64,000 nucleotides of DNA, from the IMG/VR virus record IMGVR_UViG_3300045988_167796, positions 4,032-68,031 of that record. The stretch is one strand, 5' to 3'. The translations under genes were made by a program, and so were the position numbers. A model generated the notes under the pieces. That model saw nothing but the letters and a program-made list of their open reading frames with translations, was not told the DNA's origin and made no database searches. Origin of the DNA: a virus. Within the stretch, counting starts at the first letter, position 1. Every line of letters starts with the position of its first letter. Below, piece by piece: positions 59,127-62,458 of the stretch.

Positions 59127-62071
59127 ATGAATGTAATAAAAAAAGATTTAACGAAAGAACCATTTAACGACCAAAAAATTGTTGATGCAGTAAATAAATC
59201 AGCAAGCAGAGTTATGGTTAATTTATCAAATGATGACTATAAACAAATTATTGATTTAGTATGGGATAATCTTATAGAGGATGATGTTGATGAAGAAAAA
59301 GAATGTACAGTAGAAGATCTTCATAATGCAGTTGAATCTGCGTTAGAAGAATTTAATCCTAAAATTGCAAAGAGTTATAAAGATTATAGAAACTATAAAA
59401 AAGATTTTATTCATATGATGGATCAGGTTTATGCTAACGCGCAAAAGATTCGTTATATTGGTGATAAAGATAATGCAAATACAGATAGTGCCCTCGTTGC
59501 CACAAAGAGAAGTCTGATTTTTAACTCTCTTAATAAAGAGTTATATCAAAAATTCTTTATGACTGTAGACGAACGTCAGGCATGTAAAGATGGATATATT
59601 TATATTCACGATATGTCTGCAAGACTTGACACAATGAATTGTTTTAGAAGAGATACACGCTTTATTACAGAATTAGGAGTTAAATCATTTTATGATTTTA
59701 AAGACGGAGATACAATAAGAGTTTTAACTCATAAAGGTAATTGGAAAAATGCGGTTGTAAGGTCTTATGGATGGCAACCCATTAATAAAGTTACGTTAAA
59801 AAGAGCTGCAGGAAAATCAAAAGACATATATTGCACAGCAAATCATCGATGGATTTTAAAAGATGGTACAGAAACAACAAATTTGAAAATTGGAGATAAA
59901 TTAATTGCTGCTCCAGATATTACTAATTACGAATGGAGTAGTTTGACTAAGTTAGAAAAATTATTATGGTGTATTGGGTTCGGTATTGCAGACGGCAGTA
60001 TAGTCCAAGATAATAGTATTCCAATTATGATGATTAGATTGTGTGGGCATAAAAAAGATTTTGCTTATCGATTTGAAGACATTGGATACATTGTGACATA
60101 TCCGAATTCGTTAAACGGAGATGGACAAGTAAGGATGTATGATATTCACACAAAAGAATTACCATGGATGATTTTAAATGCAGAAAATGTCAGGTATTTA
60201 ATAGACGGATTCATGTCTGCCGACGGAAATAAATCTTCATCGGATAATTATAAATACAGAGGCATTCAAGTAACAGGTGATTTTAATAAATATATTTATG
60301 ATTTATTAAACATTGCAGGACAGTATGTAAGTTCTACAAGAGATTTGACAGGGGAAGAAACTAATTATGGTATAAGAAAACAAACAACAATTACATATCA
60401 AACATGTAGCAATCAAGGAGATCGAACGTGGTTCGTAGAAGATATCAAAAAAGATAAATTAAATTCAAAATCAAAAGTATGGTGTTTAGAGGTAGAAGAT
60501 GATCATAGTTTTATCTTAGAAGGTGGTATACCGACTGGGAATTGTTGTCTTTTCCGTGTAGGAGAAGTAATGCGTGGCGGTTTTGAGATGGGAAATGTAT
60601 GGTATAACGAACCCAATTCATTAGATACGGCATTTGATGTTATGGGCGATATTATTCTGAGTACCGCTGCACAGCAGTATGGCGGGTTTACCGTGCCGGA
60701 GGTGGATAAGATACTGGCTCCTTATGCCGAAAAATCATATATAAAATATAGAAATGAATTTTTAGAATGGTGTGATTCAAATTTTGAAGATAAAGCAGAT
60801 GATTATGCTACTCAGAAAGTAAAAAGAGATTTTGAGCAGGGATGGCAAGGAATTGAGTATAAGCTGAATACAGTAGGTTCTTCCCGCGGGGATTATCCAT
60901 TTGTAACGATGACATTTGGATTAGATACGTCAAAGTTTGGGAAAATGGCTTCTATCACATTTTTAAATGTACATAAAGAAGGTCAGGGGAAAGAAGGATT
61001 TAAGCGTCCAGTTTTATTCCCAAAACTTGTATTTTTATATGATAAAAATCTTCATGGAGAAGGATGTATTAACGAAGATGTGTTTAATGCAGGAATTGAT
61101 TGCAGCATGAAAACAATGTATCCTGATTGGTTATCTCTTACAGGAGAAGGATATGTCCCTTCTATGTATAAGAAGTATGGAACGGTTGTGTCTCCGATGG
61201 GGTGTCGTGCCTTTTTAAGTCCTTGGTATGAACGTGGTGGTATGGAACCTGAAGATGAAAATGATAAAGCTATATTTGAAGGACGTTTTAACCTAGGTGC
61301 AATAAGTCTTCATCTGCCTATGATACTTGCAAAAGCAAGACAAGAAAGTAAAGATTTTTATGAGGTACTTGATTATTATTTGGAAATGATTAGAAATTTA
61401 CATAAAAGAACGTATGACTATATTGGGGAACTAAAAGCATCAGTGAATCCAGTTGCGTATTGCGAAGGTGGTTTTTACGGAGGATATCTTAAACCAGATG
61501 AAAAAATTAAACCAATTTTAAAACCTATGACTTTATCATTTGGTATTACGGCTCTGAACGAGCTTCAGGAGCTTTACAATGGAAAATCCATTGCTGAGGA
61601 CGGACAGTTTGCATTAGAAGTAATGGAATATATCAATAAAAAACTTGCTGAATATAAAAAAGAAGATGGGTTATTATATGCTATTTATGGCACACCTGCA
61701 GAAAGTCTTTGTGGATTGCAAATTGAACAGTTCCGTAAGAAATATGGAATTATTGAAGGCGTGTCAGATAGAACATATGTAAGTAATAGCTTCCATTGTC
61801 ATGTTACAGAAGATATTAGTCCAATTGAAAAGCAGGATCTCGAGAATAGATTTTGGAATTTATTTAATGGTGGAAAAATTCAGTATTGTAGATATCCAAT
61901 TTCTTATAATAAAGAAGCTGTTGTTACTCTCATTCGAAGAGCAATGGATATGGGGTTGTACGAAGGCGTAAATCTTTCACTAGCGTATTGTGAAGACTGT
62001 GGTCACGAACAGTTAGATATGGATGTTTGTCCTGTGTGTGGAAGTCATAATATTACAAAAGTTGACAGGAT
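59127..62071 (+). CDS. nrdD: anaerobic ribonucleoside-triphosphate reductase NrdD, exon 1 (contains intein 59640-60542); annotated ORF runs to stop 62099 if unspliced
   Basis: N-terminal ATP-cone (VIKKDLTKEPFNDQKIVDAV). C-terminal CxxC...CPVCG zinc ribbon. No glycyl-radical motif before the stop. Confidence 0.75.
59640..60542 (+). mobile_element. intein (301 aa) with LAGLIDADG homing-endonuclease domain inserted in NrdD
   Basis: Starts CFRRDTRFITELG (block A). Two LAGLIDADG motifs LLWCIGFGIADGS and YLIDGFMSADGN. Ends ...ILEGGIPTGN with +1 Cys. Extein without it is 689 aa, normal for NrdD. Confidence 0.7.
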
Positions 62072-62367
62072 AGAAAATCCGTTTGTCCTGTATAAATAGT
62101 TTAAATTGCGGGGACTCCCTTAGAGCTTAAAAGGCTACAACGTGATCAGAAATGATGAGCGTGAATGCGGCATAGCGAAAGCACAGACCATAAAAACTTT
62201 TAAGATTGGGAAACCGAAGATGGAAGTTCTTCAGACGCAGCGAAATCCTTAATGAATATTATTAGGGAGACGTTCAACGACTATAATACTACTTTGATTG
62301 TATAGTCTAATCCGTCTTATTTAAAATAAGAGTTAAAGTATTGCGAAAGCAACGGTATATAGATATG
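62072..62367 (+). ncRNA. putative group I self-splicing intron in nrdD (296 nt, no ORF)
   Basis: P1: exon ACAGGAU (62065-62071) pairs with GUCCUGU (62085-62091), ending in the canonical U-G. P10: 3' exon GAACGG (62368-62373) pairs with CCGUUU (62079-62084) directly 5' of the P1 guide. Ends in G. Contains GNRA tetraloop hairpins gcGAAAgc (62175-62182, 62343-62350). In-frame TAG at 62097 lies inside it. Confidence 0.55.
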
Positions 62368-62458
62368 GAACGGTTATCTAGGATATACGAGAGTTCATGG
62401 CGATACTCGTTACAATAAAGCAAAAAATGATGAAATTGCAGATAGGGTATCAATGTAG
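62368..62458 (+). CDS. nrdD: NrdD exon 2 (glycyl-radical C-terminus: MNGYLGYTRVHGDTRYNKAKNDEIADRVSM)
   Basis: In a frame different from exon 1 and closed upstream. GYLG...N.AK.DEIADRV resembles the NrdD glycyl-radical tail (RVCGYLG...NAGK.EE...RV). Confidence 0.5.

What the first reader, a model, noticed from the sequence alone, without database searches (positions are those of the whole stretch)
62065..62458. nrdD appears split by a 296-nt group I intron; the glycyl-radical motif is encoded in a downstream mini-exon
The 990-aa NrdD ORF stops 18 codons after its second CxxC (CPVCGSHNITKVDRIENPFVLYK*) without any G-Y glycyl-radical motif, which class III RNRs require. About 300 nt downstream, in another frame and open only from 62363, lies ...NGYLGYTRVHGDTRYNKAKNDEIADRVSM*, which resembles the NrdD C-terminus. 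The junctions carry textbook group I features. Exon ACAGGAU (ending U62071) pairs with GUCCUGU (62085-62091), giving P1 with a terminal U-G. The 3' exon GAACGG (62368-) pairs with CCGUUU (62079-62084) immediately 5' of the guide, giving P10. G62367 precedes the 3' exon. GAAA tetraloop hairpins sit inside. Splicing would join ...KVDR + M + NGYLG... in frame. T4 nrdD also carries a group I intron.
Basis: partly seen in the sequence, partly recalled or inferred. Interest (0 to 1): 0.8.

Follow-up and report, generated by a model that had tools for sequence, protein, structure and literature searches.

The report
Compact group I intron splitting nrdD
A 296-base self-splicing-type (group I) intron interrupts a gut phage's anaerobic ribonucleotide reductase gene four bases before the codon for its catalytic glycine; introns in this gene are well known, but this one sits at a new site and lacks a stem (P8) usually considered part of the ribozyme core.

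Summary
The 990-codon nrdD frame (59127-62099) stops without a glycyl-radical motif. Removing 62072-62367 joins ...KVDR + M(AU|G) + NGYLGYTRVHGDTRYNKAKNDEIADRVSM*. All 80 closest NrdD relatives in IMG/VR are uninterrupted here and read ...IDRMNGYL..., which fixes the junction to the base.

The joined protein, with the intein also removed, covers the NrdD profile end to end. The intervening RNA has P1 with a U-G wobble, P10, a terminal G, and P3-P7, P9.0 and P9. On eight related introns, 98% of cells pair and 31 of 64 pairs show double changes.

Its relatives lie in split RNR genes of Herelleviridae and in nrdD of gut phages. Those sit at two other points within 9 nt of the same glycine codon. 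T4's nrdD intron is elsewhere, at codon 180.

Two twists stand out. The intron has no P8: 9 unfoldable bases link P3' to P7'. It also carries an extra hairpin at the P4 bulge. Rfam scores it only 20.7 bits against a threshold of 50.

P8-less relatives have exon 2 under strict purifying selection, which argues that they splice. The same gene also carries a 301-aa intein at the active-site Cys. This is a known kind of element with a new site and a reduced core. Splicing was not shown directly.

The parts
59127..62071 (+). nrdD exon 1 (ATP-cone, NrdD barrel, Zn-ribbon CxxC...CxxC); it ends with AU, the first two bases of a Met codon
   Evidence: ORF list. NrdD profiles TIGR02487 and PF13597, and T4 NrdD 1h78.
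59640..60542 (+). In-frame 301-aa intein (CFRRD...IPTGN, followed by +1 Cys) with a LAGLIDADG-like block (LLWCIGFGIADGS). It is inserted at DTMN|CCLF, before the Cys that aligns with T4 NrdD Cys79.
   Evidence: About 70 close homologues read DTMNCCLF/C uninterrupted. TIGR01443 intein_Cterm scores 19.4 bits, above its cut-off of 15.6. It is 35% identical (E 3e-55) to the insert at the same site in L002.
62065..62071 (+). P1 5' strand (last 7 exon bases, ACAGGAU); the 5' splice site follows U62071
   Evidence: The U-G pair at the splice site is invariant in 8 of 8 related introns.
62072..62367 (+). Group I intron, 296 nt, with no ORF of its own and 36% G+C
62079..62084 (+). P10 5' strand (CCGUUU), which pairs with the first six bases of exon 2
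   Evidence: 6/6 paired. In relatives P10 changes together with the exon sequence: CCGAUAU/AUAUCGG, CCCAA/UUGGG, CCUAA/UUAGG.
62085..62091 (+). Internal guide sequence (P1 3' strand, GUCCUGU)
   Evidence: 7/7 paired. 4 of the 7 P1 pairs covary.
62097..62100 (+). P3 5' strand (UAGU), followed by J3/4 AAA
   Evidence: It pairs with ACUA at 62288-62291. P3 covaries in all 8 introns compared.
62107..62112 (+). P4 5' strand (UGCGGG, part of the conserved block AAAUUGCGGG). It pairs with CC 62214-62215 and CGCA 62236-62239.
62117..62210 (+). P5 (CCC 62117-62119 / GGG 62208-62210) enclosing a P5abc-like extension. The extension comprises P5a (62126-62133 / 62197-62204), a GAAA-capped hairpin (62140-62162) and an A-rich strand (ACCAUAAAAA).
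   Evidence: 6 of the 8 P5a pairs have compensatory changes; the hairpin shows 3 of 4.
62216..62232 (+). Extra hairpin 'X' (GAAGA-UGGAAGU-UCUUC), emerging from the 3' strand of P4 where other group I introns have a bulged base
   Evidence: It is conserved in 8 of 8 introns of the sub-family, with one compensatory pair. It is absent from L097/L032-type relatives.
62246..62268 (+). P6 hairpin (UCCUUAAU...AUUAGGGA)
   Evidence: 3 of 4 aligned pairs are compensatory; coordinates.
62272..62291 (+). Conserved 'R' block: J6/7 (GUUCAAC), P7 5' strand (GACUAUA, 62279-62285), AU, then P3 3' strand (ACUA, 62288-62291)
   Evidence: Rfam alignment. P7 is 7/7 paired with two covarying positions, and its G-C pair is invariant.
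62292..62300 (+). Nine-base linker (CUUUGAUUG) where P8 should be; it cannot form a hairpin
   Evidence: RNAfold gives 0.0 kcal/mol with no pairs. In relatives the same position holds anything from 0 to 8 bp of P8.
62301..62307 (+). P7 3' strand (UAUAGUC, the 'S' block)
62312..62355 (+). P9.0 (CCG 62312-62314 / CGG 62353-62355) enclosing hairpin 62315-62331 and the GAAA-capped P9 hairpin 62341-62352
   Evidence: P9.0 is CCG/CGG here and CCC/GGG in relatives, a compensatory change. 4 of 4 P9 pairs are compensatory.
62367..62367 (+). Terminal G of the intron (omega-G); the 3' splice site follows it
   Evidence: This is the only position that restores the frame and the DRMNGY peptide.
62368..62458 (+). 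nrdD exon 2: G completes the Met codon, then NGYLGYTRVHGDTRYNKAKNDEIADRVSM and the stop. The glycyl-radical Gly codon is GGT 62372-62374.
   Evidence: It aligns with RTCGYLG of solved NrdDs and with the last positions of TIGR02487. It is near-identical to the C-termini of 80 intron-less homologues.
62469..63011 (+). nrdG (activating radical-SAM enzyme); its ribosome-binding site (AGGAGG) overlaps the nrdD stop codon
   Evidence: TIGR02491 scores 183 bits against a cut-off of 126.

Best explanation
The 296 bases at 62072-62367 are an ORF-less group I intron inside the phage's class III ribonucleotide reductase gene. It lies between the 2nd and 3rd base of the Met codon, two codons before the glycyl-radical glycine.

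Inferred mechanism, from the standard group I pathway:

- The last seven exon bases pair with the internal guide (P1), putting U62071 in a U-G wobble.
- A free guanosine bound at the invariant G-C pair of P7 attacks after U62071.
- The first six bases of exon 2 pair next to the guide (P10), and G62367 takes the guanosine site.
- The freed 3'-OH of exon 1 then attacks after G62367.
- The ligated mRNA encodes a 1011-aa precursor. Excision of the 301-aa intein gives a 710-aa NrdD with its C-terminal glycyl-radical domain, which NrdG (the next gene) can activate.
- Unspliced RNA gives a protein without the radical glycine, which cannot be active.

Shown here:

- the exact junction;
- the completeness of the joined protein;
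- the helices and their covariation;
- relatedness to introns in other phage RNR genes.

Inferred, not shown:

- that the RNA actually splices;
- that it does so without P8.

The intron belongs to a phage clade in which P8 shrinks stepwise to nothing. There is no P2, so no L2-P8 contact would be needed. That last point rests on general knowledge of group I structure, not on a test.
For: 1. Junction. All 80 nearest NrdD relatives (79-84% aa identity) carry ...K(I/V)DRMNGYL..RVHG.TR.N.AK..EI..R.SM* uninterrupted, with DNA GAC MGN ATG AAY GGN TAT. The window gives GAC AGG AU|G AAC GGU UAU.

2. Protein.
- The joined protein without the intein hits TIGR02487 NrdD at 578.8 bits over profile positions 1-581 of 581.
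- It hits PF13597 over 1-560 of 562.
- It aligns with T4 NrdD to residue 602 of 605.
- It aligns RMNGYLG to RTCGYLG of chain 9d3x.

3. Intron signatures. P1 is 7/7 paired with a U-G wobble, P10 is 6/6 paired, and the intron ends in G.

4. Core.
- Rfam's Intron_gpI model aligns the P, Q, R and S blocks, with E 0.0068 in the local search.
- RNAalifold on 8 related introns predicts 65 pairs, 30 of them with compensatory changes.
- With P3 added as a pseudoknot, 98.0% of cells pair, against 34-42% when the partners are slid by 1-3 columns.
- 31 of 64 pairs have double changes, and 0 of 500 shuffles reach the observed values.
- P3 and P7 covary across all 8 introns.

5. Relatives.
- blastn places the sequence in unannotated gaps of split nrdE/nrdF genes of Enterococcus and Staphylococcus Herelleviridae.
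- Related introns split nrdD of gut phages 8 nt downstream (L002 and 11 other loci, plus L185, L188, L193 and L097).
- In each of these, P1 and P10 are re-tailored to the local exon sequence.
- The cultured Enterocloster phage CB473P1 has a 935-nt intron carrying an HNH-type ORF exactly after the Gly codon.

6. Function of P8-less relatives.
- In the L002-type loci, exon 2 shows up to 14 synonymous and 0 non-synonymous differences in 26 codons.
- Exons in those loci are about 89% identical, while the intron is about 99% identical.
- So exon 2 is translated in frame, which requires splicing.

7. Context. The gene sits in an intact nucleotide-metabolism module: ThyX, guanylate kinase, NrdD, NrdG.
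Against: - There is no RNA evidence for this locus.
- The match to Rfam RF00028 is only 20.7 bits (gathering score 50), and nothing is found at the gathering threshold.
- That model is weak for the whole clade. Only one of seven related loci reached E <= 1, at 26.3 bits, and the accepted Herelleviridae nrdE intron gap did not.
- P8, normally a core helix, is absent, so autonomous catalysis cannot be taken for granted.
- No second intron at exactly this insertion site was found in IMG/VR, the metagenome collection or GTDB genomes. The evidence from selection on exon 2 therefore comes from relatives, not from this intron.
- The whole-sequence MFE z-score is modest, at -2.16.
Confidence: 0.83

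Rival explanations
1. The sequence is a group I intron by descent but is now crippled by the loss of P8. nrdD would then be a decaying pseudogene in this phage, or the intron would splice only with help from a host or phage protein.
For: - P8 is missing and the Rfam score is low.
- The intron has no homing endonuclease and no close sibling at this site.
- The same gene also carries an intein, so it is doubly burdened.
Against: - Every other helix, the G-binding G-C pair, P1, P10 and the terminal G are intact.
- Exon 2 has no stop or frameshift and keeps the motif residues of intron-less homologues.
- nrdG downstream is intact.
- Independently P8-less relatives (L002-type, L188) sit in genes whose exon 2 is under strict purifying selection, with 0 non-synonymous against up to 14 synonymous changes.
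- Dependence on a protein helper cannot be excluded.
Confidence: 0.12
2. This is a split gene without splicing. The large NrdD fragment and a separately translated 30-aa glycyl-radical peptide would assemble after translation, as the two NrdA halves do in Aeromonas phage Aeh1.
For: Split but functional RNR genes without introns are documented in phages (PMC3653736).
Against: - The exon 2 frame is open only from 62363 and has no in-frame start codon or ribosome-binding site before NGYLG.
- The spacer has the full set of group I helices with covariation.
- The junction restores a codon split across the spacer (AU|G), which only RNA joining can use.
Confidence: 0.02
3. The pairings arose by chance in an AT-rich intergenic spacer that followed an assembly or sequencing error truncating nrdD.
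For: The window comes from a metagenome assembly.
Against: - The same architecture recurs in more than 20 independent contigs from different samples.
- The conserved blocks are unique in the window, against about 0 expected from shuffles.
- Slid-partner controls drop from 98% to about 40% paired.
Confidence: 0.01

Closest known systems
Phage T4 nrdD (sunY) group I intron, subgroup IA2, carrying I-TevII
   Same: Same host gene and the same kind of element, in a nucleotide-metabolism operon followed by nrdG. P1 has a U-G wobble and the intron ends in G (PMC2988022).
   Different: - The T4 intron is 1033 nt and encodes a GIY-YIG endonuclease.
- It lies at codon 180 (AYE|YEV), about 400 codons upstream of the radical glycine.
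- The window's intron is 296 nt, has no ORF, lies 4 nt before the Gly codon and lacks P8.
Group I introns in nrdE/nrdF of Herelleviridae (Staphylococcus phage Twort and relatives; Enterococcus Kochikohdavirus phiEF17H)
   Same: - These are the closest cultured-phage relatives by sequence: 72% identity over 59% of the intron.
- They share the R and S blocks, the GAAA-capped P5b hairpin and the P9 region.
- They are also inserted in RNR genes near conserved residues (PMC3653736).
   Different: - The host genes are class Ib RNR genes.
- These introns keep a normal P8: 8 bp in phiEF17H and 5 bp in PALS_1.
nrdD introns at the Gly|Tyr junction in gut-phage contigs (MT835556.1 = L002 type; L185, L188, L193, L097) and in Enterocloster phage CB473P1
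   Same: - Same gene, with the target within 9 nt.
- Same intron sub-family: hairpin X, the P5 extension, and 69-76% identity.
- Several also lack P8.
- L002 carries a homologous intein at the same Cys.
   Different: - The insertion point differs: immediately after the Gly codon (CB473P1) or 1 nt into the Tyr codon (the others), against 4 nt before the Gly codon here.
- The guide and P10 sequences therefore differ as well.
- CB473P1's intron carries an HNH-type ORF, and L002 has a free-standing HNH ORF next door. The window has neither.
Bacillus prophage SPbeta bnrdE (group I intron plus intein in one RNR gene) and nrdD of 'Jug' jumbo gut phages (fragmented by group I introns and inteins)
   Same: An intron and an intein coincide in a single ribonucleotide reductase gene. 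For the Jug phages, splicing is supported by metatranscriptomes (PMC3653736; PMC12880540).
   Different: The host lineages and insertion sites differ. No sequence relationship was tested here.

Membership tests
Group I intron (Rfam RF00028; core of Michel and Westhof) | P1 formed by the 5' exon and the internal guide, with a U-G wobble at the 5' splice site | tested here: met
   ACAGGAU/GUCCUGU pairs 7/7, with a U62071-G62085 wobble. The U-G pair is invariant in 8 of 8 relatives.
Group I intron (Rfam RF00028; core of Michel and Westhof) | Terminal G (omega-G) and P10 pairing of the 3' exon next to the guide | tested here: met
   G62367 is the last intron base. GAACGG/CCGUUU pairs 6/6. In relatives P10 follows the exon sequence.
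Group I intron (Rfam RF00028; core of Michel and Westhof) | P3-P7 pseudoknot, P4-P6 stack and the conserved P/Q/R/S blocks, with a G-C pair in P7 as the guanosine site | tested here: met
   The blocks were aligned by Rfam. P3, P4, P5, P6 and P7 are 89-100% paired with compensatory changes, and the P7 G-C pair is invariant.
Group I intron (Rfam RF00028; core of Michel and Westhof) | P8 hairpin between P3' and P7' | tested here: not met
   Only 9 nt (CUUUGAUUG) lie there and they have no possible stem. Rfam aligns 1 nt against 59 model positions. Relatives show every stage from 8 bp down to 0.
Group I intron (Rfam RF00028; core of Michel and Westhof) | Score at or above Rfam's gathering threshold (50 bits) | tested here: not met
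   20.7 bits, with E 0.0068 in a 701-nt search, and nothing at the gathering threshold. Related introns also fail; the best is 26.3 bits.
Group I intron (Rfam RF00028; core of Michel and Westhof) | Guanosine-dependent self-splicing with exon ligation | not testable with these tools
   The only support is indirect: the junction matches intron-less alleles, and exon 2 of P8-less relatives is under purifying selection.
NrdD, class III anaerobic ribonucleotide reductase (TIGR02487 / PF13597) | Full-length match above the curated cut-off, including the C-terminal glycyl-radical motif (R-x-x-G-Y-L/I-G) after the Zn-ribbon | tested here: met
   The joined protein without the intein scores 578.8 bits (cut-off 326) over profile positions 1-581 of 581. 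RMNGYLG aligns with RTCGYLG. nrdG is adjacent. The unspliced ORF lacks the motif.
Intein with LAGLIDADG-type endonuclease domain | In-frame insert bounded by Cys1 and a C-terminal Asn followed by Cys+1, absent from orthologues; splicing blocks present | tested here: met
   The insert is bounded C...N|C, and DTMNCCLF is uninterrupted in about 70 homologues. TIGR01443 scores above its cut-off. The Pfam Intein_splicing match is below its cut-off, at 24.0 bits against 35.8. Protein splicing itself is not testable here.

The most novel reading that the evidence does not exclude
The most novel reading not excluded is a natural lineage of compact phage group I introns that has dispensed with P8, a helix treated as part of the universal catalytic core, and still splices. 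The lineage includes this intron, the L002 type, L188, and the L032 type near a terminase-like gene. The window's intron is one of its most reduced members, and it also carries a conserved extra hairpin growing out of the P4 bulge.

The clade targets three different phosphodiester bonds within 9 nt of the glycyl-radical codon of nrdD. That pattern suggests repeated re-targeting of one hot spot. The 5' exons at the window's site and at the site 1 nt into the Tyr codon commonly end in GGAU opposite a GUCC guide, though two relatives (L188, L097) have GGGU instead.
Probability: 0.45. Interest if true: 0.6.

Novelty: new variant of a known kind. Interest (0 to 1): 0.42.

Why it matters
- Annotation. 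The gene caller on the source contig, and GenBank for Enterocloster phage CB473P1, report a truncated NrdD with no radical glycine. Such genes would be scored as defective although they are most likely complete after splicing.
- Mobile elements. The locus adds a third insertion point to a tight cluster of introns around the glycyl-radical codon. Together with the intein at the active-site Cys, it is a clean example of selfish elements homing to the two most conserved motifs of one enzyme.
- RNA structure. If the P8-less introns splice on their own, they define a smaller natural group I core than the textbook one. The series from 0 to 8 bp of P8 would be a ready-made set for testing what P8 contributes.

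Tried and rejected
- Rfam at the gathering threshold found only tRNAs. The permissive scan gave a sub-threshold Intron_gpI hit.
- The first IMG/VR pattern (AGACCATAAAAA-N8-GATTGGG) found nothing. It was replaced by the R-block pattern.
- The hairpin-X pattern found no bacterial or archaeal genome copy and no second intron at the window's exact site in metagenomes.
- RNAalifold paired the P3 5' strand with the conserved GCGAAA segment after P4. I rejected this because it is broken in the window and in L188, whereas the pseudoknotted P3 is perfect in all eight introns.
- MAFFT puts P3' of the window and of L188 one column out of register. The 89.5% paired figure for P3 therefore understates it; I checked P3 by script.
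- A tertiary pairing between the 9-nt linker and the hairpin-X loop was checked by eye. It is not conserved in the L002 type, so I dropped it.
- I considered whether the extra hairpin replaces P8. It is not strictly linked: L189 has both, and L097 and L032 have neither.
- A PDB sequence search with the intein found nothing meaningful.
- Three full-text searches for natural P8-less group I introns, or for nrdD introns at the glycyl-radical site, found no description. The group I intron database paper has no relevant text. This is absence in the held library, not proof of novelty.
- The apparent 72 non-synonymous differences involving L053/L184 come from an indel that shifts my fixed 100-codon window in exon 1. 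I ignored them.
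Full report
**1. The observation**

The window contains an ORF at 59127-62099 (990 aa). It is an NrdD that ends ...CPVCGSHNITKVDRIENPFVLYK* with no glycyl-radical motif. A different frame, open only from 62363, reads ...NGYLGYTRVHGDTRYNKAKNDEIADRVSM* and stops at 62456-62458.

- ACAGGAU (62065-62071) pairs 7/7 with GUCCUGU (62085-62091), with a terminal U-G wobble.
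- GAACGG (62368-62373) pairs 6/6 with CCGUUU (62079-62084), directly 5' of the guide.
- G62367 precedes exon 2.

Removing 62072-62367 (296 nt) joins GAC AGG AU + G AAC GGU UAU, which reads D R M N G Y.

**2. The junction is fixed by intron-less alleles**

A search of IMG/VR with the last 290 residues of exon 1 returned 80 loci at 79-84% identity. In all 80 the gene runs straight through this point as ...TK(I/V)DRMNGYL(S/G)Y(S/T)RVHG.TR.N.AK..EI..R.SM*. The DNA there is GAC MGN ATG AAY GGN TAT.

The Met codon that the proposed splice assembles from AU and G is therefore exactly what the uninterrupted genes have. No other junction gives this peptide. Using the neighbouring G62368 as the last intron base shifts the frame into a stop.

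**3. The joined protein is a complete NrdD**

The tests below used the joined protein with the intein also removed (710 aa):
- It matches TIGR02487 at 578.8 bits (cut-off 326) over profile positions 1-581 of 581.
- It matches PF13597 over positions 1-560 of 562, and it has an N-terminal ATP-cone.
- It aligns with T4 NrdD (1h78) to residue 602 of 605.
- It aligns with chain 9d3x with RMNGYLG opposite RTCGYLG.

The radical glycine is therefore the G of MNGY. This is the only glycine conserved at this point in the clade. Its codon is GGT 62372-62374, four bases after the 3' splice site.

nrdG follows at 62469-63011 (TIGR02491, 183 bits). Its Shine-Dalgarno sequence overlaps the nrdD stop codon. 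Upstream lie a DNA polymerase III alpha subunit, a RecD2-type helicase, ThyX and a guanylate kinase homologue.

**4. The spacer is a group I intron**

Rfam at the gathering threshold finds only tRNAs. A permissive scan of 61900-62600 gives Intron_gpI at 20.7 bits (threshold 50, E 0.0068). That alignment places four conserved blocks correctly but leaves 1 nt against the 59 model positions of P8:
- AAAUUGCG (P4 5' strand);
- GACGCAGC (P4 3' strand);
- GUUCAACGACUAUA (J6/7 and P7);
- UAUAGUCUAAUC (P7 3' strand).

The low score is a property of the whole clade. Among seven related loci only one reached E <= 1, at 26.3 bits, and the Enterococcus phage nrdE intron gap did not.

**5. Relatives**

blastn with the 296 nt hits unannotated gaps between the pieces of split RNR genes:
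- nrdE of Enterococcus phage phiEF17H and five related Enterococcus phage records;
- nrdF of Staphylococcus phage PALS_1.

The best hit is a human-faecal phage contig, MT835556.1 (L002). Its nrdD carries a homologous intein at the same Cys (35% identity, E 3e-55). It also carries a related intron 8 nt further downstream...RRTCG, then GGAU | intron | AUAUCGG. There P1 is GUGGAU/GUCCAC and P10 is AUAUCGG/CCGAUAU.

Further scans widened the family:
- A scan of IMG/VR for the R block gave 100 stretches.
- A metagenome scan for the hairpin-X block gave 10 more.
- Eleven further copies of the L002 type were found, plus L185, L188, L193 and L097. All are in nrdD, 1 nt into the Tyr codon, each with P1 and P10 fitted to its own exons.
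- The cultured Enterocloster phage CB473P1 has a 935-nt intron with an HNH-type ORF exactly between the Gly and Tyr codons. GenBank annotates a truncated NrdD there and leaves exon 2 unannotated.

Three insertion points therefore lie within 9 nt around the radical glycine codon. The window's point was not found anywhere else. T4's nrdD intron is at codon 180 (AYE|YEV), as computed from the RefSeq record.

**6. Secondary structure and covariation**

I aligned eight introns of the sub-family (A1). RNAalifold predicts 65 pairs, 30 of them with compensatory changes.

I then named a structure of 64 pairs in 15 helices. It drops one spurious helix and adds P3 as a pseudoknot. The results were:
- 98.0% of cells are standard pairs.
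- The figure falls to 34-42% when the 3' partners are slid by 1-3 columns.
- 31 pairs have changes on both sides.
- 0 of 500 shuffles reach the observed pairing, double-change or covariation values.

Three of the eight rows are close relatives of one another, so the counts are not eight independent events.

A script check shows that P3 and P7 pair perfectly in every intron:

| Helix | Window | Variants in relatives |
|---|---|---|
| P3 | UAGU/ACUA | UCGAU/AUCGA, UCGUA/UACGA, UUGG/CCAA, UCGAA/UUCGA, CCGAU/AUCGG, UCGCU/AGCGA, CAACU/AGUUG |
| P7 | GACUAUA/UAUAGUC | GAACAUA/UAUGUUC, GAGUAUA/UGUACUC |

Window coordinates of all helices come and are listed under 'parts'. The architecture is as follows:
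- P1 leads straight into P3; there is no P2.
- P4 is followed by P5 with a P5abc-like extension. That extension has a GAAA-capped hairpin and an A-rich strand.
- A conserved extra hairpin (62216-62232) emerges from the 3' strand of P4.
- P6, P7, P9.0 and P9 follow, with a GAAA loop on P9.

**7. P8 is missing**

Between P3' (62288-62291) and P7' (62301-62307) lie nine bases, CUUUGAUUG, which cannot fold. Across the R-block family the same interval ranges from full 5-8-bp hairpins, through 2-3-bp stems capped by GAAA or GUAA, to nothing.

The interval holds no stem in:
- the window;
- the L002 type;
- L188;
- the L032/L047/L076 type, which sits next to a GIY-YIG ORF and a terminase-like ORF.

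The loss therefore recurs and is graded. The nine bases correspond in length to J3/8 plus J8/7 of other group I introns. That comparison is from my own knowledge and was not tested.

**8. Do P8-less introns work?**

There is no RNA evidence for any of them. The indirect evidence comes from the twelve L002-type loci:
- Exon 2 differs by up to 14 synonymous and 0 non-synonymous changes in 26 codons.
- Flanking exon DNA is about 89% identical between sub-lineages.
- The intron is about 99% identical.

Exon 2 is thus translated in frame, which requires splicing. The intron is either spreading or strongly constrained.

For the window's own intron the evidence is weaker. All helices other than P8 are intact, exon 2 is intact and matches intron-less homologues, and nrdG is intact.

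**9. Published context**

- nrdD is reported as the most often split RNR gene in sequenced phages. The reported cases include T4, Lactococcus phage 949 (a non-coding intron) and Clostridium phage c-st (an intein). SPbeta nrdE holds both an intron and an intein (PMC3653736; PMC2988022).
- In 'Jug' jumbo gut phages, nrdD is fragmented by group I introns and inteins in 95 of 104 genomes. Splicing there is supported by metatranscriptome reads (PMC12880540).

An intron in a phage nrdD, with an intein alongside, is therefore an established kind of finding.

I found no description of introns at the glycyl-radical codon or of natural group I introns without P8. That is a limited search.

**10. Verdict**

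This is a group I intron of a phage RNR-associated clade, placed at a new site 4 nt before the glycyl-radical codon. It has a reduced core with no P8 and an extra P4 hairpin, and it shares its gene with an intein at the active-site cysteine.

| Explanation | Confidence |
|---|---|
| Intron that is spliced at these junctions | 0.83 |
| Inactive, or dependent on a helper protein | about 0.12 |

The source contig is a 171.7-kb metagenome-assembled phage genome. Its automatic annotation calls only the 990-aa truncated product.

Noticed in passing
window 59640-60542: There is a 301-aa intein with a LAGLIDADG-like block inside nrdD. It is inserted at DTMN|CCLF, so its +1 nucleophile is the Cys that aligns with T4 NrdD Cys79. 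About 70 of 80 close homologues lack it, L141 has one at the same site, and L002 has a homologue (35% identity).
   Followed up: yes
window 40671-41724: A cluster of tRNA genes has unusually long inserts in the variable region. Examples are tRNA-Gln(ttg) at 92 nt with a 23-nt insert and tRNA-Ile(tat) at 86-88 nt with a 14-nt insert containing GCGAAAGC. ARAGORN genes, while Rfam finds a 4th at 41659-41724.
   Followed up: no
L198 (Enterocloster phage CB473P1, OP172755.1) 2601-3619: The GenBank nrdD CDS ends ...RRTCGRPRLF*. An unannotated 935-nt group I intron carrying the 'hypothetical protein' CB473P1_00055 (HNH-type motif) follows, and then an unannotated exon 2 reading YIGTHYWNYGRTEEIRDRFVHLGDNED*. 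The intron lies exactly between the Gly and Tyr codons.
   Followed up: partly
L002 (MT835556.1) 3520-3798: A free-standing HNH-type endonuclease ORF lies between nrdD exon 2 and nrdG, next to the ORF-less intron. This arrangement resembles intron and free-standing endonuclease partnerships. The window has no such ORF.
   Followed up: partly
L002, L015, L053, L060, L070, L075, L087, L184, L186, L187, L190, L192: The L002-type intron is about 99% identical across contigs whose flanking nrdD exons are only about 89% identical. This suggests recent horizontal spread of the intron, or very strong constraint on it.
   Followed up: partly
L001 (Enterococcus phage phiEF17H, AP018714.1) 1-3213: nrdE is annotated as three separate 'putative ribonucleotide reductase' CDSs (ORF195, ORF193, ORF192), with a 'hypothetical protein' (ORF194) lying between the first two. 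The ORF193-ORF192 gap holds a group I intron related to the window's, and it is not annotated as an intron.
   Followed up: partly
L032, L047, L076 (IMG/VR) around 2540-2790 of L032: Another relative with no P8 (linker CUCUGAUGG) lies directly after a GIY-YIG endonuclease ORF and before a 403-aa ORF that looks like part of a terminase. Neither the host gene nor the splice sites were worked out.
   Followed up: no
L196 (ENA ERZ27229639 k119_175764, 171,722 bp): This is the source contig of the window. The automatic gene call lists the 990-aa NRDD product and nothing for exon 2, so the enzyme appears to lack its radical glycine.
   Followed up: yes
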